Source: Candidatus Parcubacteria bacterium
GTDB taxonomy: Bacteria > Patescibacteriota > Minisyncoccia > Phycocordibacterales > UBA918
Direction of reading: 5' to 3'
Assembly: GCA_046050355.1 (NCBI GenBank)
Contig: JBJOPW010000001.1
Span: forward strand, 67,858 to 131,857
DNA length: 64,000 nucleotides
The notes beneath the pieces are model-generated. The model saw only the letters and a list, made by a program, of their open reading frames with translations, did no database searches and was not told where the DNA came from. Each line of letters opens with the position of its first letter. Within the stretch, counting starts at the first letter, position 1. The translations under genes were made by a program, and so were the position numbers. Shown here piece after piece: positions 1,132 to 56,210 of this stretch.

Positions 1132-1158
1132 CCGTGCTACAAACAATTTAAAAAGCAC

Positions 1159-1183
1159 AAAGACGAGGTCTTGCCTCGTCTTT
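1159..1183. repeat. Palindrome AAAGACGAGG-tcttg-CCTCGTCTTT, copy 1, between the divergent uvrB and transposase starts
   Basis: Perfect 10-bp arms read directly. The same unit recurs at 1705-1723, 1774-1798 and 28709-28734. Confidence 0.8.
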
Positions 1184-1196
1184 TCGAAAAGTGTTG

Positions 1197-1202
1197 TATA
1201 AT
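1197..1202 (+). promoter_or_regulatory. TATAAT -10 box 11 nt upstream of the transposase ATG
   Basis: gtgttgTATAATactgtgagtgtATG. No clear -35 box. Confidence 0.35.
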
Positions 1203-1213
1203 ACTGTGAGTGT

Positions 1214-1849
1214 ATGGCGATAAGAAAGTTTTCATTCGCACCTGACGAAATATTCCATTGCTATAACCGTGGGGTTGATAAACGAGCAGTTTTTGAAGAT
1301 AAGCAGGACTACGGGTATTTTTTAAAGTTGTTGCGATATTTTAATACATCGGCAGTGAGAGGTAATTTAAGGTCAGTAGAAAATAAAGAGCCTATAAATC
1401 CTCCAGTAACTATACTTGCCTACTGTCTTCTTCCAAACCATTATCATCTTTTAGTACGCTGTAATGATGTTGAGGGAGGTTTGTCAAAATACATGCAGCG
1501 TGTTGCAGGCGGATATACGATGTATTTTAATCAAAAGAATAGTCGATCGGGTTCTCTATTTCAGGGTAAGTTTAAGGCAAATCACGTTGATACCGATAGT
1601 TATTTACGGAACATCTTAGCGTATGTTGGGTTTAATTTTATTGTTCATGATATAAATGAAAAAAGTCTGTATCGAGCGAGCATCAATTATAAAGACGAGT
1701 TAGTACGAGGTCTTGCCTCGTCCTTTTCAGAAGAACAAATGCTCGAAGTTATTGAAATAATAAAAGAAATGAGAAAGACGAGGCAAGACCTCGTCTTTGA
1801 GCATGAGAAGGTGGCTGGTGTGAAGAGTGTGGAGGATATTTCTACTTAG
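1214..1849 (+). CDS. HUH/Y1 tyrosine transposase-like protein (IS200/RAYT family, Y1_Tnp-type)
   Basis: N-terminal FHCYNRGVDKRAVFEDKQDY..FLKLL, the HUH motif in LLPNHYHLLV, and a candidate catalytic Tyr in ILAYVGFNFIV (compare YxxxNP). The last ~50 codons run through two copies of the GACGAGG palindrome, so the true C-terminus is uncertain. Confidence 0.75.
   Translation: MAIRKFSFAPDEIFHCYNRGVDKRAVFEDKQDYGYFLKLLRYFNTSAVRGNLRSVENKEPINPPVTILAYCLLPNHYHLLVRCNDVEGGLSKYMQRVAGGYTMYFNQKNSRSGSLFQGKFKANHVDTDSYLRNILAYVGFNFIVHDINEKSLYRASINYKDELVRGLASSFSEEQMLEVIEIIKEMRKTRQDLVFEHEKVAGVKSVEDIST
1705..1723. repeat. GACGAGG-family palindrome, copy 2 (acgaggtcttgcctcgtcc), inside the transposase ORF tail
   Basis: Same loop (tcttg) and orientation as copy 1. 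Its flank aaagacgag..ttagt..acgagg looks like copy 1 with a 10-nt insertion. Confidence 0.7.
1774..1798 (-). terminator. GACGAGG-family palindrome, copy 3 (loop inverted: caaga); probable intrinsic terminator of tgt
   Basis: On the minus strand it lies ~46 nt after the tgt stop and reads GACGAGGtcttgCCTCGTC followed by tttctcatttctttt. It overlaps the 3' tail of the plus-strand transposase ORF. Confidence 0.5.
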
Positions 1850-10173: not shown

Positions 10174-13100
10174 TTAGTAAACAGGAACGGCTATATAGAC
10201 AATTTCGGTGGTATAACTAGCGGCTGGTTGCATCCCAGTCACCTTTACTCTATATACAATATCATGGCTGTCATTGGCTGGTAATGGACTATACATAACT
10301 TCAGCCACATCAGTATGGAGACCAGCATAACTATCAAGCGGAGCAAATCGCGTAGAACCACCCGTGAGCGTTGCATCTGTTGTATGGTAGCCGACACAAC
10401 CAGATGCGGTAGTGATACAACCAACCGCCCAAGCAGCCGGCACAGCATTAGTTCCGGTGACGGACGGGATTGGTGTCCCATAGCCATTTTGTAACTGCTG
10501 GCGCGCAAAAGACAGCACTCGGTAGCCATCAGTAGCATTAGTGGTGACCGCCAACCGGTGAGCTGCCACCGCATCAGTGTCAATTGGTATTGAACCGAAG
10601 GTTACCGTTGCCGGGGTAGTGGCTACCGTCGTAACTACACCAGCAGTCGTCGTACCACTTGGAAGTCCACTAATACTCAGTGTCAATTTTGGTGTCTCTG
10701 CAACAAGACTTGGGTATGATTCCCCGCTTGCTGGCGCAACCGGTGCGTCTTCAAAGACTTCGTAGAGTCTGAAGTAGTACACTGCCCCCGCCCGAGCAGC
10801 TGCATGACGGAGGTAAAAGGCAAATTCAGTCGACGCACCGGCTAGATGGGTGTACCCAGTCGTATAGGTTGGCGACTCGTTGTGTGTACCACAACCACTG
10901 CCTGTACCACCCGTACAGCTGTTAGCATCAGTCAGCACTTTAGTGGTAATAGTGGCATTATCAGTACCACCACCGTCGACATAACACCACGTTGAGGTGG
11001 CCGTACAAGCTGCTTGCGTCACGACATCTTTTGGCGACGTAAATGTTGGCGACTCGTCGTATTGGAGTTTAAATTTTATGTCTTGGCCCACCACATTTTT
11101 TCGTTGACCAACCGTAACGCGTAAAGTAAATTCATTTCCATTTTGTACCTCAATTGGTGAAATAATTTCACCAGAAAGTGGACTAAGGGGGGTTTCGCTT
11201 TCAGCATCATCATAAAAGCGCCAACGTTTTGTTTGTGGTGAATAGCCGGCTGTGCGGATTTGCGGGTAGTTAAAATAACCGTCTAATGGTGTACCGTCAC
11301 TCCGTACCATACGGAAACAGTAGGTATTACGTGAGATTGCACCATTGTGTTGAATAAACCAATCGTATTCTACGTCTTCACCCGGATCAACAATATAAGG
11401 GTTAGCTGGTGCCGGATTTTCTTCAACTAAACTACCAGCTCGATCAGCTACCGAAATTAACAAATCGCCTCCGGTTGGCGGGTTGGTACTTAAATTTGTA
11501 CCGTTTGTTGTCCCTGTGGCAGCGTACCCTCGCCAGATACCACTACCAGCCGCAGTGTCAAGATCACTCCAGGTACCAACGGTCGAACAGGAAGTAGCAC
11601 GCAATCCATACTGCAACTTAAAATCATACAGACCAGCCGGTAGGTTTGCGTTGGCTACCCGTAACGTCATGCGTAGTCGCACCAGGTCACCATCTCCGAG
11701 TGGTTCGTCGGCAATTGTAATGGGGTTGTTTTCACCCAAATCTGAGACACCAACCGGCCATGGGTCGGTGGGCTTCAGGGCATTATTATTAACATAGAAC
11801 CGATAGTAATTTTGACGAACAGCGAGTCCAGAAACTGGCCATTCCACAATTTCGGTACGATACGTCATTTCCCCTGAGGCTTCACTGCGCCACAGTTCAT
11901 AGGTGGACGTGCTCGTAATACGAGCACCGGCCATTGGTAAGGGAAAGGTCGTATTAGCCCCCACGACGCGGGTATTAGCAAATATTGATGCATTGTTTGT
12001 CGCTTCAATTGGTGAGAAGATTGAGATTGATAACGCTACTGGCTCAGTACCGGCGTTGGTCGTTCCATTTGTTCGTTGTACCTCCATAGCACCGGCACTG
12101 GTCTGCAGGTTTTCAATAATCCAAGCCACTGAAGTATGTCCGCTCGGTGCAGTAGCAGCGCCCTCAAGTCGGTATGATACGGCGCCAATACTCGACAGCC
12201 AAACTTCGTGGCCAAAGTTGTTGACGTTGCCTTGAGCGGTCATGCGTTTTTGTGTGTGTATAAACGAACGCGCTAAACTATTGAGCGTTGTTGGTATTGA
12301 TTCTGTTTCTACGGTTCCAACTGCAGTATACGTATGTTCACTTCGTTGCACCTGCCAATTAATGCCGGTAAATTCAACCACGGCATAGCTCACATTGATA
12401 ATAGCCCCACCGGCTCCACGATTAAAAACGGGTGCCGTACTGGTGGGACTCCAACTTGATGTTACTTGCCCGGCATAATACACGTTACGCGCAACATCAC
12501 GGTTCTCAATACCAGTTATAAAGACCACCACATCAGTATTATCGGTAATGGTACCAAGGGCAGTGCCGGTGGCTATCAAGGCGGCACTCGCCATATTGAC
12601 ACTCCCCACCCCTCTTACCTTCATTTCATTGTCGGTGCCAGCATCCCCAATAAACTCAACGATTTCCCAGTTCACCCGTGTATTTCCGGTGGCAGCTGGT
12701 GGCCGAGAAATGGTAAAATTGCTCGGTAAGTTAGCCGCCGAAATGTACGCGGTGATATCATCGGCATTTTGCGCTCCTCCACCAGCTGTCGTGCGTCCCG
12801 GCCCAGTGTTGTGGGTGTCAGTGAGACGGACAAAGGCAGTCGTTGTGCTCGCTGGAGCAGTATAGTCAACACCAGCGGTTAGCGTTTGTGACGTACCGGC
12901 GATGGTAGCAGTGCCACGCTGCACTTTAAAATCACGCTTGGGAGCAGTGGTTAGTTCTGCATAGTTACTATAGGTTAAGGGTTCTCCATTATTGGTGAGT
13001 CTAAAGCAATACGTAGTATTATAAGCAGTAATATTGGTAGAGGTAATACTAAATTCATACTCAGCAAATTCAGTTGTACTCATGACCAGAGCAGAGGTAG

Positions 13101-16100
13101 TACTCGTGGTATCACGTTGGCCGGCATTTGCGACAATAAAGGTTGGATTTGGGTCGGTAACACCCCCGTTTGCAACCGCAATATTGGTAGTGTTGTTACC
13201 GTTGGTGAGATTAGTGCTATCAAACATATTCCAGTCATCAGCACTATCGCCAACCGGTGTCCACACACTCACCGCACTACAGGTAGTCACGCGCGGTCCA
13301 AATTCAAGGCGATAGGCGGTTGCAACAGAAGCAGCCGCACCTTCGTTTGAAAGTGCCAGGCGTAGTCGGATTGGTGTATTGGCAGGGTGTTCTGTCAGGA
13401 GGACATTTTCTGACCCACCTGTAGCTGAAGTTGCTGTAGTTTCAGACCCATTGTCGTTACGCCAATGGTAACCATTTTGGGTAATCACTGGTCCTGAAAG
13501 CGTGGTGGTACCGTTAATTGCTATCGGTGTAGATGGTGATACCGATCCAGCCGAGACACCGATATCATTAGCGGGTGAAGAAATTTCTATTTGCACGGTG
13601 TCACCATTGCTAGCCGCAGCGGTAACATCAAACACCACATAAAGACAAACGGTCTGTGTGGTTGTTACGGTCACCGAGCCACTAAACGTTGATGTACCAT
13701 TTTGACTAGTAAAGCCATCAGTATCGGTGCTACCAAATTGCGTTTCTGATCCACCATACGATTCACTGGCACAATCGTACGGAGCGGTGGTGTCTAAATC
13801 ATATCTAAGCACTATGGTATCTAAGTGATTCTGTGCATCAACAGTGCCATTCTCAGCTATCATAATATTGGTAATATTTCGACTACTGGTGTTTTCACGA
13901 AAGACAAACTGGCCGCCGACATGTTGATTTGTAGATGGCACCAAGAGCGATGCTGTCTGACTACCTAAAGCGGTCACACTGACATCAGCGGCAATGGTGA
14001 CACTTGGGAATTGTGAATATACGGGTAAGGGGGTGCCAGCATTAGTAACACGAAAACAGTACGTTGTTCCCTCACTCGCTGAGGTTGATGCAACAATGGC
14101 ATATTCTAATTCAACAAAATTAGTGTTCGTTAGCGTTAAAGAGCCAGTTTGTGAAGAGACTTCGCGCAAGCCACCATTGGGGGTTAAAAATGTCGTGTTT
14201 TCGTCGGCCACACCACCAGTACCCACTGCAATATTAGTAGTATCTCCCCCTTCGGTAATATTTGCAGATAACGACATATTCCAGGCATCATCGGCTGCCC
14301 CGACATCAGTCCAACTCGTGGTGTCATTACAGGTCGGGGCTGCTACCCCATACTCCAAACGAAATGTTGATGCGGCGCTAGATAGTGAGCCTTCGTTTGA
14401 TACCTGCACGCGCAGGCGACGAGGGTTATTCGGCAACAGTGCAGCGATTGGTGTATCAGCTACTCCGCCGGTCGCAGATGAGGCGGTAGTTTCTGTACCG
14501 TTATCGTTACGCCAGTGGTAGTGCGTTTGGGTAAGTTCATCATTTTGAATCAGTGATGATGAAGCCATACGCACTGGAGATTCAGGCATTACCAGCACAC
14601 CACCAGTGACAATCACGTCATCATTAGGAGCTTCAACTGAAACTGACAACGTATCACCATCAAGGGCAGCTTCTAGTACATCGAGCACGACGTAGAAGCA
14701 CATGGCCTGTGTCGTGGTGATAGACTGTAAGCCAGAAAAACTCGAAACCCCATTAGCGCCAGAAAATCCATTAGTGTCTGTAAGTCCATACTGAGATTCA
14801 GTGCCACTATATGATTCACTGACACAGTCATAGGGGGCCGAAGTATCAAGGTCATAAAACAATTTCACATTGCTCACCGCAGTACTACCATTAATACTGC
14901 CACGCTCGTTAACGACTACAGCGGTCACATTCCGACTACTTTGGGTTTCTCGAATTGCAAACTTGCCGCCGACATAGACATTATTGGTACCGGCGGTGAT
15001 AACACTGGTCGCTGTACCGGTTGCATACAATTTTGTAATCGGTGCGATATCAGCAAGCGTATCACCAAAATAATCATCTGGTGCTGGGTCAGTCCAACTC
15101 ACATAGATGCGCTCATCACTCATGAGATTGATATCAAGACCACGATGGTCGCCAGCAGTCACACCCGAGACGGTTCGCTCAGGACTCCAGGTTGACATAG
15201 CAGAAGTTGAAGTCGCCCAGTAGATACCTCCGGTCGTGGCTGTCGCCGGTGTCGACCGTAGTACATAGGCAACATAAACAGTACTGGTATTGATATCTAA
15301 TCCAATCGCAACCGTATTAAGACCACGTGTTGTATTCGTAAATACTGCAGTTGTTCCAGTCCATGAACCGGATGAGAACTTAGCCGTACGAACATCATGA
15401 TCAAGTGTAGTATACGTGTCATGATCAGCACCATAGGCAAGATACACATCACCGGAGTTTGGGTCAACAACAGCCGCCATACTGGTATCGTACGTAGCAC
15501 TCTCAACGGCTGCCCCATCAATAGTAGTCCAACTGGCTGACCAAGCTGATCCATTCCATACACGTGACTGAATCACGTTTAAACTAATGTCACGGTTTAT
15601 AAGGAGTACATTGCCATTAATAAGTGGCAACAATATATTCCAATCATTATCAAGATCCATAAAACGCGCACCACCCGGCTCACTCCAGCCAGTAGTGGCG
15701 GTGCACCCCGTGTCAGTATCGCAACTCACCACAAAAGAATCAGCGGCATCTGAGATACCGATAAAAACTTCGTTACCAGCATTTTTTGTGACCGTGAGGT
15801 TGTTAGTACCCGATACGTAGGTGCCGGCCTGACTTGAGTTGGTACTCGCGTTCACTGGAGCAGTACCGAGGAGGAGAGTGTCGGTACTGGTATCAAGCGC
15901 ATTATAAAATACATGGTCGGGGTTTGAGGCCGTTTCCATTGTTGCTATATGAATCGTGCTCCCAAAGTCGCCGGGTGTCCACTGGTCATACCACACCGCA
16001 ATACTCGAACAGTCAGTTTGGGCATCTACAATCACTGGTGTATTCCAGACCGTACCACCGTTTGTAGTCTTACTATACACACAACTACCAGAGAGATCTC

Positions 16101-16335
16101 GGTAAAACTTGTACCCCACCTGATCAGAAGTGAACACCGTTTGGGAGCCACCGAAGAAAAATGAGTTGGCATCGGTACTCACCGTAGCATCAATGGTATT
16201 TTGGGCAGCTTCGGCCATAGTCGGCCAGGCCATATACTCCAAAAACGTGAAGTTGAGAAAAAACATCACAGCTAACATGATGCCAGCAATCAGTCGACGC
16301 CATCCATACCAAAAAAACGCTGGAAACCTCCGCAT
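10174..16335 (-). CDS. Giant secreted surface protein (2,053 aa): N-terminal anchor, WNGSAW-type repeats, repeated YxWRxDxG beta-sandwich modules, WxL-like C-terminal module
   Basis: Uninterrupted 6.2-kb ORF starting at an ATG. YHWRNDNG(T/S)ETTA occurs twice; also RWRFYDDAESE and YCFR(V/L)TN. C-terminus ...SYTTEIVYIAVPVY. Confidence 0.85.
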   Translation of the reverse strand: MRRFPAFFWYGWRRLIAGIMLAVMFFLNFTFLEYMAWPTMAEAAQNTIDATVSTDANSFFFGGSQTVFTSDQVGYKFYRDLSGSCVYSKTTNGGTVWNTPVIVDAQTDCSSIAVWYDQWTPGDFGSTIHIATMETASNPDHVFYNALDTSTDTLLLGTAPVNASTNSSQAGTYVSGTNNLTVTKNAGNEVFIGISDAADSFVVSCDTDTGCTATTGWSEPGGARFMDLDNDWNILLPLINGNVLLINRDISLNVIQSRVWNGSAWSASWTTIDGAAVESATYDTSMAAVVDPNSGDVYLAYGADHDTYTTLDHDVRTAKFSSGSWTGTTAVFTNTTRGLNTVAIGLDINTSTVYVAYVLRSTPATATTGGIYWATSTSAMSTWSPERTVSGVTAGDHRGLDINLMSDERIYVSWTDPAPDDYFGDTLADIAPITKLYATGTATSVITAGTNNVYVGGKFAIRETQSSRNVTAVVVNERGSINGSTAVSNVKLFYDLDTSAPYDCVSESYSGTESQYGLTDTNGFSGANGVSSFSGLQSITTTQAMCFYVVLDVLEAALDGDTLSVSVEAPNDDVIVTGGVLVMPESPVRMASSSLIQNDELTQTHYHWRNDNGTETTASSATGGVADTPIAALLPNNPRRLRVQVSNEGSLSSAASTFRLEYGVAAPTCNDTTSWTDVGAADDAWNMSLSANITEGGDTTNIAVGTGGVADENTTFLTPNGGLREVSSQTGSLTLTNTNFVELEYAIVASTSASEGTTYCFRVTNAGTPLPVYSQFPSVTIAADVSVTALGSQTASLLVPSTNQHVGGQFVFRENTSSRNITNIMIAENGTVDAQNHLDTIVLRYDLDTTAPYDCASESYGGSETQFGSTDTDGFTSQNGTSTFSGSVTVTTTQTVCLYVVFDVTAAASNGDTVQIEISSPANDIGVSAGSVSPSTPIAINGTTTLSGPVITQNGYHWRNDNGSETTATSATGGSENVLLTEHPANTPIRLRLALSNEGAAASVATAYRLEFGPRVTTCSAVSVWTPVGDSADDWNMFDSTNLTNGNNTTNIAVANGGVTDPNPTFIVANAGQRDTTSTTSALVMSTTEFAEYEFSITSTNITAYNTTYCFRLTNNGEPLTYSNYAELTTAPKRDFKVQRGTATIAGTSQTLTAGVDYTAPASTTTAFVRLTDTHNTGPGRTTAGGGAQNADDITAYISAANLPSNFTISRPPAATGNTRVNWEIVEFIGDAGTDNEMKVRGVGSVNMASAALIATGTALGTITDNTDVVVFITGIENRDVARNVYYAGQVTSSWSPTSTAPVFNRGAGGAIINVSYAVVEFTGINWQVQRSEHTYTAVGTVETESIPTTLNSLARSFIHTQKRMTAQGNVNNFGHEVWLSSIGAVSYRLEGAATAPSGHTSVAWIIENLQTSAGAMEVQRTNGTTNAGTEPVALSISIFSPIEATNNASIFANTRVVGANTTFPLPMAGARITSTSTYELWRSEASGEMTYRTEIVEWPVSGLAVRQNYYRFYVNNNALKPTDPWPVGVSDLGENNPITIADEPLGDGDLVRLRMTLRVANANLPAGLYDFKLQYGLRATSCSTVGTWSDLDTAAGSGIWRGYAATGTTNGTNLSTNPPTGGDLLISVADRAGSLVEENPAPANPYIVDPGEDVEYDWFIQHNGAISRNTYCFRMVRSDGTPLDGYFNYPQIRTAGYSPQTKRWRFYDDAESETPLSPLSGEIISPIEVQNGNEFTLRVTVGQRKNVVGQDIKFKLQYDESPTFTSPKDVVTQAACTATSTWCYVDGGGTDNATITTKVLTDANSCTGGTGSGCGTHNESPTYTTGYTHLAGASTEFAFYLRHAAARAGAVYYFRLYEVFEDAPVAPASGESYPSLVAETPKLTLSISGLPSGTTTAGVVTTVATTPATVTFGSIPIDTDAVAAHRLAVTTNATDGYRVLSFARQQLQNGYGTPIPSVTGTNAVPAAWAVGCITTASGCVGYHTTDATLTGGSTRFAPLDSYAGLHTDVAEVMYSPLPANDSHDIVYRVKVTGMQPAASYTTEIVYIAVPVY
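12990..15090 (-). repeat. Tandem in-frame duplication (~1.05 kb, ~350 aa per unit) inside the 2,053-aa gene
   Basis: The anchor sequence encoding YHWRNDNG sits at 14497-14520 and 13447-13470 (1,050 nt apart). The flanking protein segments align, for example LFYDLDTSAPYDCVSESYSG with LRYDLDTTAPYDCASESYGG. Confidence 0.75.
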
Positions 16336-23825: not shown

Positions 23826-24419
23826 ATGCCAGATTTGGATTCACTCCTTGAGTTTACACGCCTGATGTCAAAGCTTTCAACTACTGAGCGTTTTGTTAAC
23901 AAAATCGGTACTAATACGCGTGAGAATTTCTCAGAACACTGCACACAACTTGCTTTTACTGCTTGGTACCTGATTGAAAAACATAAAATGTCGCTGGCTA
24001 TAGAGAAAGTTCTACAATACGCTCTCATACACGACATTGTGGAAACGTATACCGGCGACTTTCCCACCCATTTACCTAACTGTGACCGACAGGAAAAAGA
24101 ACGCCGAGAACGTGAAGCCTTTGCATGTATCAAACAAGATTTTCCCGACGCTACAAGTTTATGGTTACAATACGCGCAATATGAACAAAAGATCGATGCC
24201 GAAAGTAAGTTCGTTTACGCACTCGATAAACTACTACCAGGACTTAACATTTATTTAGACTCAGGCAAAGCCTGGGCTGAGAGGGATCCGGAGAATAACA
24301 CTTGGAGTTTCGATGATCTATCAAAACGGGTAGCACACGATCAGTTAGTTTCTCAGCTATGGGAAGAAATTCGGACTCGAATCTATACAGAACATCCAGA
24401 GTTTTTCTCCCAGCCGTAA
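23826..24419 (+). CDS. HD-domain phosphohydrolase (YfbR-like 5'-deoxynucleotidase family)
   Basis: RENFSEHCTQLAFTAWYL...ALIHDIVETYTGDFP (H...HD...D metal-binding pattern). Confidence 0.75.
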   Translation: MPDLDSLLEFTRLMSKLSTTERFVNKIGTNTRENFSEHCTQLAFTAWYLIEKHKMSLAIEKVLQYALIHDIVETYTGDFPTHLPNCDRQEKERREREAFACIKQDFPDATSLWLQYAQYEQKIDAESKFVYALDKLLPGLNIYLDSGKAWAERDPENNTWSFDDLSKRVAHDQLVSQLWEEIRTRIYTEHPEFFSQP

Positions 24420-25682: not shown

Positions 25683-26630
25683 CTACGTTAAACGAGAACG
25701 ACGGTTATGAATAAAGAATAAGATGACAATAAGTACTGCGAAGATTGGCAGCAGGATCGATAGCTTGTGTGCTATTGATAGTCCCATAAAGCCGTAACCA
25801 GCGACCTGTAGCGTGCCATATGGCAATATACTCAAGTTGAGTTCACCCTCTTGTTTGACATCCTCGCCATTTTTAATGGTATACCGCGCGATATAGCTAC
25901 CAGCCGGTAACCGGGTCGGGAGTGAGGCACTAATTTCTTCTATCGCGTAGGGAGCGATTTTTTTGAGACGACCCGTATGGTGGGTTTCCTCGAGTAATAC
26001 GGCGCCAGCGCGATCATAAATACGAAACTCAACATCTGACGGAGCAACATCAATGTTACCGGTGTTCTCAATCAACATCGAAAAATTAATCTTGCCAGGG
26101 AAATACAACCAACCAACTTTCTTTCCTTCATTGAGATCACTGACAGTAATCTTACGGACGCGGAAATCTTCGATGACTTTATCAATGACTGATAGATCGA
26201 CATCAACTTGAGCACCCAGAGAAATGCTTACGACACCCTCAGCGACCTGATCATCAGCTGGCAGCGTACGGATACGAATCTTGCCGGTATAGTCTGCAAA
26301 ATCTGCCTCAGCTGGAACCTTGATACGTACTGTCATGGGCACTTTTTGTTGTCCACGTGGCAAGGCGATACTTTGACCTTCAACAATCTCTATCCAATCC
26401 TGAATCTCTGGTGCGTCAATTGTAATTTCGGCTTTGAGATTGTCACTTGGGTTACCACGAACCAGGAGAATCTGCTGTTCGTAGGTTGAGTTGCGTGTCA
26501 GGCTGGTGTTCCGAACATACGGCGGGGTAATACCAAAACTAGCGTAACTTAAGGCTGGCCAAAAAGCCAAAGTTGCGAGCACACACAAAACAAAAGAACG
26601 AAGCAAAAACGTTGGCAAAATTACCTTCAT
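25683..26630 (-). CDS. Two-beta-sandwich surface protein with C-terminal TM anchor (DUF916/DUF3324-like), third paralogue
   Basis: Signal MKVILPTFLLRSFVLCVLATLAFWPALSYA; QQKVPMTVRIKVPAEADFADYTGKIRI; MLIENTGNIDVAPSDVEFRIYD; TM LSILLPIFAVLIVILFFI. Start set to the ATG at 26630. Confidence 0.55.
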   Translation of the reverse strand: MKVILPTFLLRSFVLCVLATLAFWPALSYASFGITPPYVRNTSLTRNSTYEQQILLVRGNPSDNLKAEITIDAPEIQDWIEIVEGQSIALPRGQQKVPMTVRIKVPAEADFADYTGKIRIRTLPADDQVAEGVVSISLGAQVDVDLSVIDKVIEDFRVRKITVSDLNEGKKVGWLYFPGKINFSMLIENTGNIDVAPSDVEFRIYDRAGAVLLEETHHTGRLKKIAPYAIEEISASLPTRLPAGSYIARYTIKNGEDVKQEGELNLSILPYGTLQVAGYGFMGLSIAHKLSILLPIFAVLIVILFFIHNRRSRLT

Positions 26631-26661
26631 GCGATACTCACTATTATCGAAAATATTAGCC

Positions 26662-26702
26662 AAAAAAGCAATAACCACTGTTCGGATAACAGTGGTTATT
26701 GC
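26662..26702 (-). terminator. Rho-independent terminator of the 625-aa surface-protein gene
   Basis: Perfect 15-bp stem gcaataaccactgtt/aacagtggttattgc (26668-26682/26688-26702) with a 5-nt loop. On the minus strand it is followed by TTTTTT and starts 20 nt after the TAA stop. Confidence 0.85.
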
Positions 26703-26722
26703 TTGTTGTATAGAGTGATGGT

Positions 26723-28600
26723 TTACCAACTTAATGGATTTGAGATTGCACCAGTGAAAGTGTTTTGTCCGGTGTATGATCCAGCGAGGGTGATCGTACC
26801 TGGTACCGCAATACCCCAGTAGGTTGTACCTGATGTTGGTGTCGAGGTCGCAGTTGGTTTTGGAATCTGAATCTGTAACGTTGCCGGTGACGTAGTTGGT
26901 TGAAGCGCTGCACCAGAGGCATAGGCAACCGCAGAAGTAGCATACCGCTGCTCACCTTGTGGAATTGTCGACGTGGCAGAAACTGGGCAAGGGTTAGTGG
27001 TACTAAAGGTCGTACACATAGACTCACCACCAAGGAGTTGATTAAGACCAGTGTTACCAAGGACTCGTAGTGATGACGATGAAGTCAAGTTTGGCATGTT
27101 TGTCCCCGGCTCAAGCTGATCGTACGCAATGGTACTCGTCAGGAGATCAATGGCCACGAGACTCAAGAGTTCTACCGGACTGGTGGTAGTCGCCATGGTA
27201 CCAGTGGCATTATCATCATCGACACCAGCTACACCAGCACTCCAAGCCTGCGTATCAAATGGTGTTCCAGAAACAGTTGGATCAGCAATGAACCAGAGTG
27301 GGAAGGAACATGAGTAACTGATCGTATCGTCAGTGTTGCCGGTACACGATGTTGTGGAAGCTGTACATGAAAGGTTCCAAACTGAAGCAGCTACTCCACT
27401 TGGATAACAGTTGTTTGCATTGTAAGCTCCAGCTGATCCATCACAAGTTGTTGTTCCAACCGCACTACGGAAGATAGAGACCACCGAACGCTGGATTTCA
27501 TCAGCCGCACCGCCACCAACCGCATCACAACTGTTAGCATCAGCCACCACAAAATCAAGCGTAAAACCTGTTGTTTGTGAACCCGGCACTGTAAGCACTA
27601 TATCAAGTCCACCATTAAGAGAAATGGTACCACCGGCCACTGTTGGTGCGACGTTGCTGACTTCAAAGGTAACGTTTGTACCTTGTGCACCACCTGATGC
27701 TTCGTGACCGTGCTCATCATAAAGATACGCAAATGCGTTGTAGTTAGTGTCCTGAAGAATAGTAGCCATTACTCGCGAGGTGGTGGCGTTAGCAAACGCA
27801 ATCGAGAGTGATGATGAAGCAACAGTATCACCGGCGCCACAACTGTTCGTACTGGTACTATATGAAGCCGAACCACAAACTACCAGGTAAAGTGCGTCAT
27901 CAGTATCTACAACGTCTGGGTCAGTAGAGGTTGATCTAAAGAGTAGTGTACCGCCTGGATTAACTGGACCATCATTACTAAACCCAGTGAAAACTGGTCG
28001 ACGATTCACATTAAATGGTGACGAGTTCGTCGCATTTGTACCCTGTGAGAAAGTGGTACTACAACGGGGGTTTACCGGATCATCGTCACACACCCAGGCG
28101 TACCAGTCGTTTGATTCAGCAAAGGGCGCAACTTCTACGGTCGTGGTGGCAGCACGGGCTTCAGTGCCACTTGGCGTGCCCGTAGAAACCGCCCAGCGTG
28201 TACCAGCACTACAGACAGGAGCCGCAGTACCTAAGGTGGTTGTCGACTGTTGAGCAGTTGGGGTGGCGTTTGTACTACACACAATGAGGAAGTATGGTGC
28301 ACCGTTGGCATCGCTTGCTGTTCCGACCCAAGCTACTTGATCACCTGAGTTCGTTGGCGAGGTTGAAGATGAGCTGATTAACTCACGACCCTCTTGTCCA
28401 GCCACCCAGGTTGGCGGCGTGTTAAGTACGGTCAACGTGGTCGTTGCAGTACTGGTCGCTTCGGCCTTTTCAAGCTCAGTTTTACCAATGTTAAGAATAA
28501 AGATGAAGGTAAAAATGAGCAACCCTGATAATGCTGATAATACGGTGATTTTCCCAGCGGTCTCTACATACCGTGGAAAGTTATTTTTGTTGTACAACAT
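26723..28600 (-). CDS. Secreted surface protein (625 aa), Thr/Ser-rich with Cys pairs; C-terminal module shared with the 7,456-aa protein
   Basis: N-terminal anchor ITVLSALSGLLIFTFIFIL. The C-terminus IAYDQLEPG...LGNTG...IPKPT...TYWGIAVPG...SYTGQNTFTGAISNPLSW parallels INYGSLAPQ...ANAGN...LSKPT...IFWGIEVPFG...GINVFTPVSP. Confidence 0.7.
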   Translation of the reverse strand: MLYNKNNFPRYVETAGKITVLSALSGLLIFTFIFILNIGKTELEKAEATSTATTTLTVLNTPPTWVAGQEGRELISSSSTSPTNSGDQVAWVGTASDANGAPYFLIVCSTNATPTAQQSTTTLGTAAPVCSAGTRWAVSTGTPSGTEARAATTTVEVAPFAESNDWYAWVCDDDPVNPRCSTTFSQGTNATNSSPFNVNRRPVFTGFSNDGPVNPGGTLLFRSTSTDPDVVDTDDALYLVVCGSASYSTSTNSCGAGDTVASSSLSIAFANATTSRVMATILQDTNYNAFAYLYDEHGHEASGGAQGTNVTFEVSNVAPTVAGGTISLNGGLDIVLTVPGSQTTGFTLDFVVADANSCDAVGGGAADEIQRSVVSIFRSAVGTTTCDGSAGAYNANNCYPSGVAASVWNLSCTASTTSCTGNTDDTISYSCSFPLWFIADPTVSGTPFDTQAWSAGVAGVDDDNATGTMATTTSPVELLSLVAIDLLTSTIAYDQLEPGTNMPNLTSSSSLRVLGNTGLNQLLGGESMCTTFSTTNPCPVSATSTIPQGEQRYATSAVAYASGAALQPTTSPATLQIQIPKPTATSTPTSGTTYWGIAVPGTITLAGSYTGQNTFTGAISNPLSW

Positions 28601-28708
28601 ACTAAATACCTATATATTGTATCGGATAAAGGCCTGAGTTATGCACTAGTTATGCACAGTAAGCAACCTCTGTGACAGCTGGTGAGTTTTAGTCACTGCG
28701 ATAATTTT

Positions 28709-28734
28709 TAAAAAAGACGAGGTCGGACCTCGTC
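28709..28734 (-). terminator. Intrinsic terminator (GACGAGG-family palindrome, copy 4) closing the tandem RNA array
   Basis: Minus strand: GACGAGGTC-c-GACCTCGTC followed by TTTTTTaaaaatt. The plus strand has no T-run after the hairpin, which sets the orientation. Confidence 0.7.
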
Positions 28735-28790
28735 CTTAGGGGCACCAAGAAACTAAAGTTCCTCAAATAAAGTGAGCGTCTGGTGGCCAA

Positions 28791-28935
28791 GAGACGTGGA
28801 CTGGGCCATTAGGGATAGTGAGAAATGGGGTGGGACCCATTTCTCAAGACTCATTGTGGATATTTGTGAGTGATAACGAAACAAATAGCCCAATGAGTGG
28901 ACAGCCTCTGTAAGAAGTCAGCTCACGGAAATTCG
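28791..28935 (-). ncRNA. Unclassified structured RNA motif, copy A (strand inferred from the downstream terminator)
   Basis: Helices: cgtggactg/cagctcacg, gagaaatggg/cccatttctc, actcattg/caatgagt, tatttgt/acaaata. No ORF. The helices covary with copy B. Confidence 0.55.
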
Positions 28936-28969
28936 TCAGGTAAGCATAAAGAGAGTGTGCGGTAGCTGT

Positions 28970-29111
28970 GAGACGTGGACTGGGCCATTAGGTGAGAAAA
29001 CGTGGGACGTTTTCGCAAGACTCATTGCGTAATTTTATGAGTGGTAACGAAATAAAATTGCCAATGAGTAGACAGTTTCTGTAAGAAATAGGCCCAGCTC
29101 ACGGAAATTCG
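28970..29111 (-). ncRNA. Unclassified structured RNA motif, copy B
   Basis: Helices: cgtggactgggcc/ggcccagctcacg, gagaaaacg/cgttttcgc, actcattg/caatgagt, aattttat/ataaaatt. Loops tggga and gagtgRtaacgaa are conserved with copy A. Confidence 0.55.
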
Positions 29112-29231
29112 CAATAGTCGGCGAAGAAGATTCAAGAAACATAGTGATTCGGCCTAGAAAAGACATTAGGAATAGTCTTCTCTAGGTAAGTTCGCAATAG
29201 TCGGCTTGCGCTTCGTTTGCTCACTTAATTT

Positions 29232-30440
29232 CTATTCATAGCGAATCGCATCCAGTGGATTTAGAGACGAAGCCCGACGGGCTGGGAAGATTCCAGTCAA
29301 GTACCCCACCGCCGCTGAGAAGAGAGCAATAAATACGAGGAAGCCAATCGGGAAAGAAAAGAGCTTCACTGCCTGCCCGCCAAATTGCCCCGCCACAATA
29401 TTCAAAAAGACATTGATGGTCACCCCTAAACCTACCCCCATCACGATGCCACTAATACCGCCAAGGAAGCCTACTACCACCGACTCTGACACGAAGAGGT
29501 ACTTCACATCATTTGGTGAGGCCCCAATCGTACGCATAATACCGATCTCTTTGGTACGCTCAAGGAGGGTCACCGTCATGGTATTGAACATACCAATGGC
29601 TGACACTACTAGCGCAATACCACCGAAGGTAGCAAGTACGATCTGAATTCCTTGAAAGATTTTGGAAGCTTGCTCCACGGTCTTTGAGAGTGCTGTCACC
29701 CGGTAGCCAGCGTCGATAAGTTTATTTTCTACAATCGGTAAATTCTCGTTGGTATCAACGCGTACTTGAATCCGTTCAAATTCTTCAATACCGACATAGT
29801 TGCGTAGTTCAGGCAACATCATCATCGCATTAAGGACACCTTCCTCTTTGGTAATGCCACGAACAGTGTATTCCTTATCAATAATGACTTCAGTGTTGTT
29901 GTTAGTCCCATCATTAGCCGGAATCAAAATACGAAATGATACTTTTTCACCAACAAAGGTGGCTGGATCATCAACTCCAAACAGCTTTAGTACGGCTGGC
30001 GAAAGCATCACAGAATTCGTATCACCAGCGTCAGCATCGGTAAAGACAGTGCCTTCAGTGGCCGATACGCCGGCATACCGCAGATAAGGTGGCTCCACAC
30101 CTTGAATAAAGACGTTCCCGGTGAGACCTTTGTAGGTGACGAGAGCCGGAAAGCGAGCGAGCGGAGCGGCGTCGAGTACCTCAGGCATATTTTCAAAATC
30201 AGCCACGGTCTCGGTGGTCAATTTTAGGTTTTGCGCACCAGTAGCTGAGACACCGAGCGACAAAAGGGTCTCACCAAACACGATCTGTTCTAGAATGATT
30301 TGCTGCAAACCAAACCCAAGACCAACGAGAATCACCACGGCCCCTGTCCCCACACCCATACCCAAAATCGTGAGCCACGTACGAAGCGGGTTGGTTTTGA
30401 ACATACGCGTCGAAAGCTGCGCCAGATCCTGAACTCGCAT
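29232..30440 (-). CDS. ABC transporter permease, FtsX/MacB-type (4 TM plus large extracytoplasmic domain)
   Basis: FKTNPLRTWLTILGMGVGTGAVVILV at the N-terminus; C-terminal LERTKEIGIMRTIGASPNDV...FPARRASSLNPLDAIRYE. The ORF-track start at 30461 is a TTG inside the promoter-like box, so the ATG at 30440 is preferred. Confidence 0.85.
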   Translation of the reverse strand: MRVQDLAQLSTRMFKTNPLRTWLTILGMGVGTGAVVILVGLGFGLQQIILEQIVFGETLLSLGVSATGAQNLKLTTETVADFENMPEVLDAAPLARFPALVTYKGLTGNVFIQGVEPPYLRYAGVSATEGTVFTDADAGDTNSVMLSPAVLKLFGVDDPATFVGEKVSFRILIPANDGTNNNTEVIIDKEYTVRGITKEEGVLNAMMMLPELRNYVGIEEFERIQVRVDTNENLPIVENKLIDAGYRVTALSKTVEQASKIFQGIQIVLATFGGIALVVSAIGMFNTMTVTLLERTKEIGIMRTIGASPNDVKYLFVSESVVVGFLGGISGIVMGVGLGVTINVFLNIVAGQFGGQAVKLFSFPIGFLVFIALFSAAVGYLTGIFPARRASSLNPLDAIRYE

Positions 30441-30446
30441 AGTACT

Positions 30447-30460
30447 TACATTATGACACA
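30447..30460 (-). promoter_or_regulatory. Extended -10-like box TGTGTCATAATGTA, 9 nt (from CATAAT) upstream of the permease ATG
   Basis: An identical 14-mer recurs upstream of the ATPase ATG (31908-31921). Confidence 0.4.
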
Positions 30461-30504
30461 ACTACTTTTCGTAAACATTAGATAACCCCCATGTCAAAAT
30501 GAAT

Positions 30505-56121: not shown

Positions 56122-56146
56122 AAGATAACTTTTGGGTTACCTATAG

Positions 56147-56181
56147 TATAACGCGCCAGTACTCGGTACTGGCGCGTTATA
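56147..56181 (-). promoter_or_regulatory. Perfect 16-bp GC-rich hairpin between the cohesin-like gene stop and the giant-gene start (terminator/attenuator/stability element candidate)
   Basis: tataacgcgccagtac-tcg-gtactggcgcgttata. No U-run follows on the minus strand, so it is not a canonical terminator. Confidence 0.45.
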
Positions 56182-56210
56182 CGAATTTTATTGTGGATTG
56201 TTTGTGCTCA

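What the first reader, a model, noticed from the sequence alone, without database searches (positions are those of the whole stretch)
1159..1849. RAYT/IS200-like Y1 transposase gene bracketed by terminator-like GACGAGG palindromes, with an ORF tail built from them
This gene is one of only two on the plus strand. It sits between the divergent uvrB start and the convergent tgt end, overlapping the tgt stop by 8 nt.

The palindrome AAAGACGAGG-N5-CCTCGTCTTT occurs:
- just upstream of the gene (1159-1183), where no terminator is needed because both neighbouring genes start there;
- twice in its last ~50 codons (1705-1723 in the same loop orientation, 1774-1798 inverted);
- at 28709-28734, where it works as a terminator.

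Copy 3 most likely doubles as the tgt terminator.

The recognisable Y1 domain ends near residue ~160. The remaining ORF (…KDELVRGLASSFSEE…RKTRQDLVFEH…) is a translation of palindrome DNA.

Y1/HUH enzymes act on DNA hairpins, so this may be a RAYT with its REP-like substrate, or a minimal IS200-type insertion between pre-existing terminators.
Basis: partly seen in the sequence, partly recalled or inferred. Interest (0 to 1): 0.55.

Follow-up and report, generated by a model that had tools for sequence, protein, structure and literature searches.

The report
Hairpin-cutting enzyme gene carrying its hairpins
A small gene for a hairpin-cutting DNA enzyme (a relative of the bacterial REP-associated transposases) carries three copies of its own 25-base DNA hairpin, one in front and two written in-frame into its coding sequence. 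The same layout, with a different hairpin in each genome, recurs across dozens of ultra-small bacteria, so the hairpins are selected as DNA and evolve together with the gene.

Summary
ORF 1214-1849 (+, 211 aa) encodes an intact Y1/HUH enzyme lying between uvrB and tgt. Three copies of one 25-nt palindrome sit at 1159-1183, about 1702-1724 and 1774-1798 (loop inverted). A fourth related hairpin is at 28716-28734. That is 4 matches against 0.08 expected.

The tail is not junk. More than 650 homologues, mostly Patescibacteria, conserve it, including a helix between the two hairpin-coded peptides.

The main result is family-wide. In 66 of 73 related loci the upstream 120 nt shares at least 14 nt exactly with the gene or its 3' flank, against 15 of 575 mismatched pairs. 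Each locus has its own hairpin sequence. Copies sit at the same sites: upstream, around residue 55-59, around 145-169, and at the C-terminus or just after the stop.

Stems change in concert, even at amino-acid cost. CDS hairpins exceed synonymous shuffles (82 vs 27±5). Copies elsewhere are rare.

A related genome has tgt directly next to uvrB with an unrelated terminator, so the gene and its hairpins form one cassette.

Best reading: a REPtron/TIRtron-type module of a divergent RAYT-like enzyme. In-frame REPs in a RAYT gene and TIR-flanked RAYT-like genes are both published, so this is a new variant of a known kind.

The parts
1139..1845 (+). Y1 cassette: the segment present in the window but absent from the tgt-uvrB junction of a related genome (L131)
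   Evidence: The blastn alignment to L131 ends at window 1138. By eye, an A-tract (AATnnAAAAAGC) just beyond that point is also shared. Similarity resumes at the tgt stop region, about 1848. L131 has only a 72-nt spacer containing an unrelated hairpin.
1155..1183 (.). Left hairpin ('up'): the perfect palindrome AAAGACGAGG-TCTTG-CCTCGTCTTT at 1159-1183. It is also the left arm of a 29-nt inverted repeat with 1774-1802.
   Evidence: Fold energy is -15.4 kcal/mol with RNA parameters. It is terminator-like on the minus strand. A cognate hairpin lies at -30 to -55 upstream of the start in most relatives.
1195..1202 (+). TGTATAAT, an extended -10-like box 11 nt before the ATG. No Shine-Dalgarno motif is present, so the mRNA is probably leaderless or has a very short leader.
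   Evidence: TTGTATAAT is conserved in the close relatives. TAnAAT lies within 32 nt of the start in 34 of 76 loci, against 2 of 76 in a control window. The median gap to the start codon is 6 nt, and only 2 of 76 loci have an SD-like motif. That it acts as a promoter is inferred.
1214..1849 (+). Y1/HUH endonuclease gene (211 aa). The HuH motif is N75-H76-Y77-H78 (H76-H78 at 1439-1447). The catalytic Tyr is Y137 (1622-1624), in a Y-x3-N motif.
   Evidence: Pfam Y1_Tnp. H76, H78, Y137 and N141 are invariant in 86 homologues. The AF2 model has pLDDT 85. The best PDB matches are 4ER8, then IS608 and ISDra2 TnpA. Among close relatives ω is 0.05-0.12.
1702..1724 (.). Internal hairpin 1 ('int1'): AGTACGAGG-TCTTG-CCTCGTCCT, with the same loop orientation as 'up'. 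It encodes L163-V-R-G-L-A-S-S-F.
   Evidence: It sits at the same offset (+490 to +493) in all 9 close loci. R165, G166 and S169 are nearly invariant, yet R165 becomes G in L003, where all three stems switched from CGAGG to GGAGG.
1774..1802 (.). Internal hairpin 2 ('int2'): the perfect palindrome AAAGACGAGG-CAAGA-CCTCGTCTTT at 1774-1798, with the loop inverted. It is the right arm of the 29-nt inverted repeat and encodes R187-K-T-R-Q-D-L-V-F.
   Evidence: It is terminator-like on the minus strand, so it is a candidate tgt terminator. It sits at +563 to +566 in all close loci and carries the same derived stem variant as 'up'. With int1 it can form a REPIN-like long hairpin over 1699-1802 (-42 kcal/mol).
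1802..1849 (+). Lineage-specific ORF extension (residues ~197-211, HEKVAGVKSVEDIST). It runs past the right repeat into the end of tgt.
   Evidence: It is not conserved in homologues, whose ORFs stop 0-12 codons after int2. pLDDT is 33-46. It overlaps the tgt ORF by 8 nt.
28716..28734 (.). Orphan related hairpin GACGAGGT-CGG-ACCTCGTC in a 630-nt intergenic region. On the minus strand it is followed by TTTTTT.
   Evidence: There is no Y1 remnant nearby (tblastn). It shares ACGAGGTCCGACCTCG with the post-stop hairpin of the distant homologue L007. Its terminator role is inferred from the T-run; the scanner did not call it.

Best explanation
This is a REPtron/TIRtron-type module.

**Composition.** It consists of a single-copy gene for a divergent class-2 Y1 (HUH) single-strand DNA endonuclease, RAYT/TIRYT-like, packaged with its own cognate hairpin. 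The hairpin is present three times: once about 30 nt upstream of the start codon, next to a probable leaderless promoter, and twice in-frame inside the 3' part of the coding sequence. The outer pair forms 29-nt inverted repeats around the gene.

**Shown.**
- The enzyme is intact and under purifying selection.
- The hairpins are selected as nucleic acid and not as peptide.
- All copies within a locus stay the same, while different loci have different hairpins.
- The gene plus its hairpins is gained or lost as one cassette.
- A few orphan copies occur elsewhere in the genomes.

**Inferred, by homology with E. coli TnpAREP and IS608 TnpA.**
- The protein binds these stem-loops when the DNA is single-stranded, and cleaves and rejoins next to them.
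- This activity, or gene conversion between copies, keeps the copies homogeneous.
- It occasionally seeds new copies, including in-frame ones at positions the proteins tolerate.
- In the window the two perfect copies probably also act as minus-strand terminators. They would then replace the ordinary tgt terminator seen in a genome that lacks the cassette.
For: **1. Enzyme.**
- Pfam Y1_Tnp hit.
- The HuH histidines (H76, H78), Y137 and N141 are invariant in 86 homologues.
- AF2 pLDDT is 85, and the best PDB match is 4ER8, RAYT bound to a REP hairpin (E 3.5e-6), followed by IS608 and ISDra2 TnpA.
- ω is 0.05-0.12.

**2. Hairpin copies.** 4 copies against 0.08 expected, three of them at the gene, with 29-nt and 25-nt inverted repeats.

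**3. Family-wide cognate hairpins.**
- 66 of 73 loci share at least 14 nt exactly between the upstream 120 nt and the CDS plus downstream flank. Only 15 of 575 mismatched locus pairs do.
- 52 of 62 loci have 2 or more copies near the gene, and 36 have 3 or more.
- Each locus has its own sequence, for example TCCAAGGT-tcg-ACCTTGGA, CCGTGGCGGT-ccg-ACCGCCACGG and AACTAGGCAT-ccg-ATGCCTAGTT.

**4. Concerted change.**
- L003 has all three stems changed from CGAGG to GGAGG, with the nearly invariant R165 changed to G.
- L005 and L084 have complementary loop changes in int1 and int2.
- In L082 and L083, 'up' is identical to the reverse complement of int2, including a mismatch in L083.
- The window's 'up' and int2 share the derived stem AAAGAC/GTCTTT.

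**5. Nucleic-acid selection.** There are 82 perfect hairpins with stems of 7 or more pairs in 77 CDS, against 26.9±5.1 (maximum 41) after synonymous-codon shuffling. Hairpin centres cluster at residues 55-59, 145-169 and 190-194.

**6. Cassette.** L131 is an empty site with an unrelated terminator. L132 has an HD_4 gene at the same place.

**7. Orphan copies.** 13 far copies occur in 796 kb. My own back-of-envelope estimate of the chance expectation, not a tool result, is about 0.3. Copies include in-frame ones in a homologous 245-aa ORF of L012 and L027, each matching its own genome's hairpin.

**8. Terminator pattern.** Both perfect copies match the terminator pattern on the minus strand.

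**9. Published precedent.** REPtrons, in-frame REPs inside tnpAREP of subclass 2.4, and TIR-flanked TIRYT genes with repeats overlapping gene ends (PMC6006769; PMC3733652). [quoted passage not shown]
Against: - No biochemical or in vivo evidence exists that this protein touches these hairpins.
- Dispersed copies are rare: one in 64 kb here. The defining REP property of high copy number is therefore absent or untestable from one window.
- The canonical GT[AG]G foot is not present in the window's hairpin.
- The protein has no sequence-level match to any solved RAYT or TnpA. It falls below the NCBIfam RAYT cut-off.
- Loop orientation of the copies is not constant across the family. Some loci have all copies in the same orientation, others alternate. 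No single strand-specific end architecture can be derived.
- Concerted evolution could come from ordinary gene conversion without any role for the enzyme.
Confidence: 0.62

Rival explanations
1. It is an autonomous, currently mobile IS200-type insertion sequence. The upstream and 3' hairpins would be its left and right ends, and the element would have transposed into the tgt-uvrB spacer.
For: - There is presence/absence polymorphism at the same site.
- The gene is 8.6 GC points below its flanks in 75 of 76 loci.
- The window's Y1 allele is much more diverged from L004 and L005 (dN 0.20, pS 0.79) than the flanking uvrB and tgt (dN 0.02-0.035, pS 0.45-0.65). The L004-L005 pair tracks the host.
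- Y1 genes 75-80% identical occur in at least two different genomic contexts.
- In many relatives the flanking hairpins have the same loop orientation.
Against: - No near-identical duplicates were found. Paralogues on one contig are 28-41% identical and carry different hairpins.
- There is one copy in the 64-kb window.
- The uvrB-Y1-tgt order is kept in genomes whose uvrB and tgt are only 82-84% identical.
- The Y motif is Y-x3-N, as in class 2, not the Y-x3-Q of IS200 (PMC6006769 Table 1).
- The protein is 211 aa, against about 150 for IS200 TnpA.
- The fold is closer to RAYT than to IS608 TnpA.
- No relatives were found in viral contigs, and only relatives of 33% identity or less on plasmids.
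- Two of the 'ends' lie inside the CDS.
Confidence: 0.15
2. The hairpins are ordinary cis-regulatory structures. They would be bidirectional terminators or insulators and mRNA stability or translation elements of a weakly expressed gene. They would be kept alike by gene conversion and would not be substrates of the Y1 enzyme.
For: - Both perfect copies match a terminator pattern for the tgt direction.
- The empty-site genome has a classical terminator at exactly this position.
- int1 and int2 can form a long 3' stem-loop of -42 kcal/mol.
- IS200 is known to use a left-end hairpin as a terminator (general knowledge).
- Dispersal is minimal.
Against: - Terminator function does not explain copies at two or three conserved in-frame sites of the CDS. 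One of these, at residues 55-59, lies in the middle of the gene in 32 of 77 genes.
- It does not explain why the copies must be identical to the upstream one.
- Stem mismatches are not of the G-U type. They are C-C, G-G, A-A and T-T, which gives no sign of RNA-level selection.
- Orphan and in-frame copies in other genes track the local Y1 hairpin.
- All studied relatives of the enzyme act on exactly this kind of hairpin (PMC8266576; 4ER8).
Confidence: 0.18
3. The palindromes are a by-product of conserved peptides (LVRGLAS, TRQDL), and the upstream copy is a chance or duplicated fragment.
For: R165, G166 and S169 and the TRQDL-like motif are conserved in the close clade.
Against: - Across the family the peptides at these sites differ widely (GLGGSTSKS, ERGGPTATL, NRHRMPK, TQVRGKASNLS), while the DNA stays palindromic and equal to the non-coding upstream copy.
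- The synonymous-shuffle test gives 82 against 27±5.
- In L003 the conserved residues change so that the stems stay paired.
Confidence: 0.02

Closest known systems
REPtron: E. coli-type RAYT / TnpAREP with flanking REPs (Nunvar 2010; Ton-Hoang 2012; Messing 2012, PDB 4ER8; Corneloup 2021, PMC8266576)
   Same: - A single-copy Y1/HUH gene flanked by copies of a cognate GC-rich palindrome in inverted orientation.
- The enzyme and hairpin co-evolve, and paralogues each have their own hairpin.
- The best structural match is 4ER8.
- int1 and int2 form a REPIN-like inverted doublet.
   Different: - There is no high-copy dispersed REP family: 1 orphan in 64 kb here and 0.16 per 10 kb in relatives.
- The window's hairpin has no GT[AG]G foot.
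- The Y motif is Y-x3-N-[FNY] rather than Y-x3-NP.
- The NCBIfam RAYT score is below the cut-off, and there is no sequence-level PDB hit.
- Two of the three copies lie inside the CDS.
TnpAY1 subclass 2.4 (Bertels group 4): REP sequences inserted in-frame within tnpAREP (Quentin et al. 2018, PMC6006769)
   Same: Cognate palindromes lie inside the transposase-like gene without breaking the reading frame. They were interpreted there as insertions in peripheral, tolerant regions.
   Different: [quoted passage not shown] Here they lie before HuH (residues 55-59 in relatives) and after the Y motif (about 163-171 and 187-195).
- The motifs differ: 2.4 has NH[IFV]H, WQ and YIxNNP, while this protein has NHYH, FQ and YVxxN[FN].
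- The taxa differ (Cyanobacteria and Bacteroidetes there).
- Subclass 2.4 REPs are long or 'double foot' and dispersed.
TIRYT / TIRtron (Di Nocera et al. 2013, PMC3733652), roughly equal to TnpAY1 subclass 2.1 (Quentin 2018)
   Same: - A RAYT-like gene flanked by terminal inverted repeats rather than a large REP family.
- Some of those repeats overlap the 5' or 3' end of the gene, and some are self-complementary.
- Few or no dispersed copies.
- The motifs NH[YF]H, FQ and a serine motif after the Y helix match subclass 2.1 in Table 1.
   Different: - No C-terminal HTH (Bac_DnaA_C, HTH_23 or HTH_28) is detected.
- The repeats lack the GGGGWSAS consensus.
- Quentin et al. found no REP-like structures around subclass 2.1 genes.
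- Additional in-frame internal copies are not described for TIRtrons.
IS200/IS605 TnpA with subterminal hairpins (IS608, ISDra2, IS200)
   Same: - The same HUH/Y1 fold.
- The enzyme recognises DNA hairpins near the element ends.
- The IS200 left-end hairpin doubles as a terminator (general knowledge).
   Different: - IS200 has a Y-x3-Q motif and proteins of about 150 aa.
- IS200 occurs as multi-copy, near-identical elements with distinct left and right ends outside the gene. None of these is seen here.
Rickettsia palindromic elements (RPEs) inserted in-frame in protein genes (Ogata et al. 2000, as cited in PMC3733652)
   Same: Palindromic repeats are tolerated in-frame in coding sequences. Orphan in-frame copies in unrelated ORFs are seen here in L012, L027 and L040.
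   Different: - RPEs are 100-150 bp and high-copy.
- They are not tied to a linked Y1 gene.

Membership tests
Y1 / HUH single-strand DNA endonucleases (Pfam PF01797) | HUH fold with an HuH metal-binding motif and a catalytic Tyr on the following helix | tested here: met
   Pfam score 29.7 bits against a cut-off of 23. H76, H78 and Y137 are invariant in 86 sequences. Foldseek finds 4ER8, IS608 and ISDra2 TnpA at E 3.5e-6 to 1e-3.
RAYT / TnpAREP (class 2 TnpAY1) | Y-x3-NP tyrosine motif and a W/F-Q motif | tested here: inconclusive
   Y137-V-G-F-N141 is followed by F (N in most relatives), not P. F116-Q117 is invariant, compared with Table 1 of PMC6006769. The NCBIfam REP_Tyr_transpos score is 41.7, below the cut-off of 80.
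RAYT / TnpAREP (class 2 TnpAY1) | Gene flanked by cognate REP palindromes in inverted orientation (REPtron) | tested here: met
   A 29-nt, 97% inverted repeat at 1155-1183 / 1774-1802, each arm itself a palindrome. Cognate hairpins are found at 52 of 62 related loci.
RAYT / TnpAREP (class 2 TnpAY1) | The same palindrome dispersed at high copy number (tens to hundreds) in extragenic space of the genome | tested here: not met
   One related orphan in the 64-kb window. 13 far copies in 796 kb of relatives' flanks. The whole genome is not available, so the total count is unknown.
RAYT / TnpAREP (class 2 TnpAY1) | GT[AG]G tetranucleotide at the 5' foot of the hairpin | tested here: not met
   The window stem is AAAGACGAGG. 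Relatives have AAGTAC, AAGTAG or AAGTTC inside the stem, so GTAG appears only in some (L002, L003, L082) and is base-paired there.
RAYT / TnpAREP (class 2 TnpAY1) | Single copy per genome, mostly vertical inheritance | tested here: inconclusive
   There is one copy in the window. Paralogues on one contig are 28-41% identical. uvrB-Y1-tgt synteny is kept across Kaiserbacteria. However, the allele is incongruent with host divergence, the site is sometimes empty or occupied by another gene, and there are two synteny groups at 75-80% identity.
TIRYT / subclass 2.1 | NH[YF]H, FQ and serine motifs, with a conserved C-terminal HTH domain (Bac_DnaA_C, HTH_23 or HTH_28) | tested here: not met
   The motifs are present by inspection (NHYH, FQ, YRAS/YRSS). 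No HTH family is detected at E up to 1. The C-terminus is instead a single long helix.
TIRYT / subclass 2.1 | Flanked by terminal inverted repeats, sometimes overlapping the gene ends | tested here: met
   The right repeat lies inside the ORF (the '3'ov' arrangement of PMC3733652).
TnpAY1 subclass 2.4 | [quoted passage not shown] | tested here: not met
   In-frame hairpins exist, but at residues 55-59, 145-169 and 190-194, not between residues 78 and 137. The motifs differ.
IS200/IS605 TnpA (subclass 1.1) | Y-x3-Q motif, about 150 aa, multi-copy near-identical elements, often with tnpB | tested here: not met
   The motif is Y-x3-N and the protein is 211 aa. No duplicates and no tnpB are seen nearby.

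The most novel reading that the evidence does not exclude
The hairpins are not relics of self-insertion. They would be functional cis-sites through which the Y1 enzyme acts on its own locus. On this reading a widespread 'closed' REPtron in Patescibacteria and SUP05-type bacteria never disseminates its hairpins. It would use the 3-4 local copies, including the in-frame ones, for an autoregulatory or DNA-rearranging cycle. Examples are cleavage and rejoining between copies that truncate, invert or restore the gene, or a replication/transcription barrier at that site. If so, this would be either the ancestral state from which REP/RAYT systems arose, or a host-domesticated single-locus ssDNA switch.
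Probability: 0.12. Interest if true: 0.8.

Novelty: new variant of a known kind. Interest (0 to 1): 0.52.

Why it matters
What RAYT-type enzymes do, and how their palindromes spread and stay uniform, is still unresolved. This clade offers a very compact system for that question.
- It has one small gene, one 25-nt hairpin and 3-4 local copies at fixed positions.
- There are almost no copies elsewhere in the genome.
- It is replicated in dozens of natural variants, each with a different cognate hairpin.

That gives ready-made enzyme/hairpin specificity pairs for in vitro cleavage and strand-transfer assays. It is also a clear case where DNA-structure selection overrides protein sequence: a nearly invariant Arg is sacrificed to keep a stem paired.

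It also bears on annotation of Patescibacteria genomes. These genes are labelled 'transposase', but they behave largely like resident cassettes that can stand in for an intergenic terminator.

Tried and rejected
- **Rfam.** No match on the whole window at gathering scores, nor on 28550-29300 at E up to 1. No known RNA family explains the hairpins or the orphan's surroundings.
- **ARAGORN.** No tRNA or tmRNA in the window.
- **Second or decayed Y1 copy.** tblastn of the Y1 protein against the window found none near 28716.
- **Solved structures by sequence.** Neither the profile nor the single protein gave a meaningful PDB hit. Only the fold search links the protein to RAYT and TnpA.
- **Phage or plasmid carriage.** There are no relatives in viral contigs. 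Plasmid hits are all 33% identical or less. There is therefore no support for either as a vehicle.
- **'Generic terminator of the genome'.** Rejected: the other strong hairpins in the window are unrelated.
- **'Insertion between pre-existing terminators'.** Rejected using the empty site.
- **Y1 73% against flanks 96% as proof of replacement.** I first read this contrast that way. The nucleotide comparison showed that the hosts are themselves well diverged at synonymous sites. The dN/pS analysis still shows excess divergence for the window's allele, but this is suggestive only, because the gene has only about 50 synonymous sites.
- **Strand-specific end architecture.** I could not derive a consistent IS200-like or REPtron-like arrangement, because loop orientation varies among loci.
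Full report
**1. What is in the window**

ORF 1214-1849 (+, 211 aa) lies between the start of uvrB (minus strand, ATG at 1116-1118) and the end of tgt (minus strand). It overlaps the tgt ORF by 8 nt. Both neighbours are confirmed by Pfam.

The ORF hits Pfam Y1_Tnp above the gathering score. It stays below NCBI's RAYT equivalog cut-off, at 41.7 against 80 bits.

The motif GACGAGG-N5-CCTCGTC occurs 4 times in 64 kb against 0.08 expected.
- A perfect 10-bp palindrome is at 1159-1183 (loop TCTTG).
- An imperfect copy is at about 1702-1724 (same loop).
- A perfect copy is at 1774-1798 (loop CAAGA, inverted).
- A shorter relative with a different loop is at 28716-28734.

Copies 1 and 3 are arms of a 29-nt, 97% inverted repeat. 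Copies 2 and 3 form a 25-nt inverted pair 40 nt apart.

The other strong hairpins of the window are unrelated sequences, so this is not the genome's generic terminator. The gene is 35-39% GC in a 47-59% GC neighbourhood.

**2. The tail is real protein**

The protein search returned 657 homologues. The closest are 70-80% identical. Sources name some of them 'RayT' or 'putative transposase', and the organisms are Patescibacteria.

Homologues of about 195 aa cover the query to residue ~195. The alignments show that L-V-R165-G166-L-A-S169 and I182-I183-K184-E-M-R187-x-T-R-Q-D-L are conserved. The helix between the two hairpin-coded peptides shows synonymous variation in the DNA.

The AF2 model has pLDDT 85. 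Residues 162-170 and 173-~192 are helical at good confidence, and only 193-211 are disordered. So only the last ~15 codons are lineage-specific read-through into the end of tgt.

The model's best solved-structure match is E. coli RAYT bound to a REP hairpin (4ER8), followed by IS608 and ISDra2 TnpA. There is no sequence-level PDB hit.

**3. The hairpins are a family-wide, co-evolving feature**

I fetched 80 genome loci. The closest are Candidatus Kaiserbacteria. The rest are other Patescibacteria, some SUP05/Thioglobus-type Gammaproteobacteria and MAGs labelled Bdellovibrionales. I also fetched 49 metagenome loci.

In the nine closest loci the three copies sit at identical offsets: about -45, +490 to +493 and +563 to +566. 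They have the same relative orientation as in the window.

Their sequence changes in concert.
- L003 has GGAGG instead of CGAGG in all three stems. The peptides follow: R165 becomes G, T becomes R, and V becomes L.
- L005 and L084 have complementary loop changes in int1 and int2. In L005 one change is synonymous and the other is Q to R.
- In L082 and L083 the upstream copy equals the reverse complement of int2 over 25 nt, including a T-T/A-A mismatch in L083.
- In the window, 'up' and int2 share the derived stem AAAGAC...GTCTTT, whereas int1 keeps AGTAC.

Across the whole sample, 66 of 73 loci share at least 14 nt exactly between the 120 nt upstream and the CDS plus 120 nt downstream. Only 15 of 575 mismatched locus pairs do.

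Each lineage has a different hairpin, and the hairpin-encoded peptides differ accordingly. Hairpin centres map to three hot spots on the protein alignment:
- residues 55-59, the loop between helix 30-42 and strand 65-72, in 32 of 77 genes. This copy has decayed in the window's clade, leaving 'VRGNLRS';
- residues 145-169;
- residues 190-194, or just after the stop.

The 77 CDS contain 82 perfect hairpins with stems of 7 or more pairs. After shuffling synonymous codons the count is 26.9±5.1, with a maximum of 41. The structures are therefore selected at the nucleic-acid level.

**4. Copy number and dispersal**

The window has a single Y1 gene. Paralogues that share a contig are 28-41% identical and carry different hairpins. 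This is unlike IS copies and resembles RAYTs.

Cognate hairpins more than 200 nt from the gene are rare, at 13 in 796 kb. My own estimate of the chance expectation, which is not a tool result, is about 0.3. Some are intergenic and terminator-like, and some are in-frame in other ORFs. A homologous 245-aa ORF in L012 and L027 carries each genome's own hairpin. The orphan at 28716 fits this picture of a small dispersed family.

**5. Cassette behaviour**

L131 (GCA_964469295.1) has a tgt 90% identical to the window's. There tgt is followed directly by uvrB.

The 72-nt spacer contains an unrelated classical terminator, AAAAAAAGCGGGCGGAAT-TACT-ATTCCGCCCGCTTTTT. The blastn alignment to the window stops at 1138. 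By eye, a shared A-tract follows, and similarity resumes at the tgt stop.

L132 has an HD_4 gene at that place. L134 and L135 have a 222-aa Y1 gene. L004, L005 and L006 have Y1 plus extra DNA before tgt.

Hence gene and hairpins come and go as one unit of about 700 bp. The hairpins were not pre-existing terminators.

Both perfect copies match an intrinsic-terminator pattern on the minus strand. The cassette can therefore plausibly supply the termination function between tgt and uvrB. This is inferred.

The evolutionary rates point the same way.

| Comparison | uvrB / tgt | Y1 |
|---|---|---|
| WIN vs L004 or L005 | dN 0.02-0.035, pS 0.45-0.65 | dN 0.20-0.21, pS 0.75-0.79 |
| L004 vs L005 | dN 0.026-0.030, pS 0.48-0.56 | dN 0.05, pS 0.46 |

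WIN, L004 and L005 are about equidistant for uvrB and tgt. The L004-L005 Y1 pair tracks the host. The window's allele is therefore probably not the vertical orthologue of theirs. This rests on only about 50 synonymous sites.

Elsewhere, Y1 genes 75-80% identical sit in two different synteny groups. The gene is AT-richer than its flanks in 75 of 76 loci while still tracking host GC.

Together this indicates long residence with occasional relocation or exchange. It does not indicate an active multi-copy IS.

**6. Expression signal**

A TGTATAAT or TAnAAT box lies a median of 6 nt before the start codon in 34 of 76 loci, against 2 of 76 in a control window. Only 2 of 76 loci have an SD-like motif. 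In the window the box is at 1195-1202, 11 nt before the ATG.

A leaderless or near-leaderless mRNA starting just downstream of the 'up' hairpin is likely. This is inferred.

**7. Comparison with what is known**

REPtrons are RAYT genes flanked by inverted cognate REPs. In vitro, TnpAREP processes its cognate single-stranded REP and co-evolves with it (PMC8266576; 4ER8).

Quentin et al. 2018 (PMC6006769) describe 12 TnpAY1 subclasses.
- Subclass 2.1 has NH[YF]H, FQ and a serine motif, a C-terminal HTH, and no REPs. It corresponds to the TIR-flanked 'TIRYT' genes of Di Nocera et al. 2013 (PMC3733652). Some of those TIRs overlap gene ends and some are self-complementary.

The window's protein has 2.1-like motifs (NHYH, FQ, YRAS) but no detectable HTH. 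It has palindromic TIRs, like some TIRtrons. It has in-frame cognate hairpins, like subclass 2.4, but at different and conserved positions. It has almost no dispersed family.

In the held literature I found no paper that mentions REPtrons or TnpAREP together with the candidate phyla radiation or Parcubacteria, and no description of this arrangement in those bacteria.

I therefore file it as a new variant of a known kind (REPtron/TIRtron), not as a member of canonical RAYT, TIRYT or IS200.

**8. Verdict**

The most likely mechanism is a Y1 enzyme acting on its own local hairpins as single-stranded DNA. This would keep the copies uniform and rarely seed new ones, and the perfect copies would double as terminators. 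This mechanism rests on homology and comparative patterns, not on direct evidence.

Noticed in passing
window 28750-29210 (between the FtsX/MacB-like gene 29232-30461 and the orphan hairpin 28716-28734): This 630-nt non-coding region contains a diverged tandem duplication with a period of about 171-179 nt. Copies of 86 nt and 47 nt are 78-83% identical, and a 17-nt stretch is exact. On the minus strand the region ends at the orphan Y1-type hairpin followed by T6. There is no Rfam match at E up to 1 and no tRNA or tmRNA. It may be an unannotated structured RNA pair or a decayed repeat.
   Followed up: partly
window 33751-56121 (-) and 10174-16335 (-): Giant ORFs of 7456 aa and 2053 aa lie on the minus strand, and 26723-28600 encodes a 625-aa Thr/Ser-rich protein with no Pfam hit. 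I did not analyse them.
   Followed up: no
window 26666-26704 and 56146-56182: Two long perfect palindromes have 17-bp stems: AAGCAATAACCACTGTT-CGGAT-AACAGTGGTTATTGCTT and GTATAACGCGCCAGTAC-TCG-GTACTGGCGCGTTATAC. They sit at gene junctions and are unrelated to the Y1 hairpin. The first overlaps the 25683-26729 / 26723-28600 gene boundary.
   Followed up: no
whole window: Nearly all genes are on the minus strand. Apart from the Y1 gene, the only plus-strand gene I found is an HD-domain (YfbR-like) gene at 23826-24416.
   Followed up: partly
L012 ~942 and L027 ~5058 (SUP05-type Gammaproteobacteria loci); L040 ~11352: Orphan copies of each genome's own Y1 hairpin lie in-frame inside other ORFs. 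The same position (around residue 26-32) of a homologous ~245-aa ORF carries GCAGGCAAGGCCTGC in L012 and GCAAGCCTTGCTTGC in L027. In L040 a copy lies inside a 1739-aa ORF. This resembles Rickettsia RPEs and suggests trans dissemination or conversion.
   Followed up: partly
L004 2663-3323, L005 1142-1532, L006 3966-4263: In these close relatives extra DNA separates the Y1 stop from tgt. In L004 and L005 it appears, from my reading of the sequence, to hold one or two small hydrophobic minus-strand ORFs. In L132 an HD_4 gene occupies the tgt-uvrB spacer instead. This intergenic site is a hotspot of gene-content change in Kaiserbacteria.
   Followed up: partly
window 1195-1213 and the equivalent position in 34 of 76 related loci: A -10 box (often TGnTATAAT) lies only about 6 nt upstream of the start codon, with no Shine-Dalgarno motif. 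This suggests the family is expressed from leaderless mRNAs.
   Followed up: partly
FLOH01000214.1 (L086 and L098), and contigs with two family members (L023, L031, L052, L054, L065, L071): Several genomes carry two family members within 5-10 kb of each other. Where I compared them (L023, L031, L052, L071) they are 28-41% identical and have different cognate hairpins. This looks like clustering of diverged paralogues rather than duplication.
   Followed up: partly
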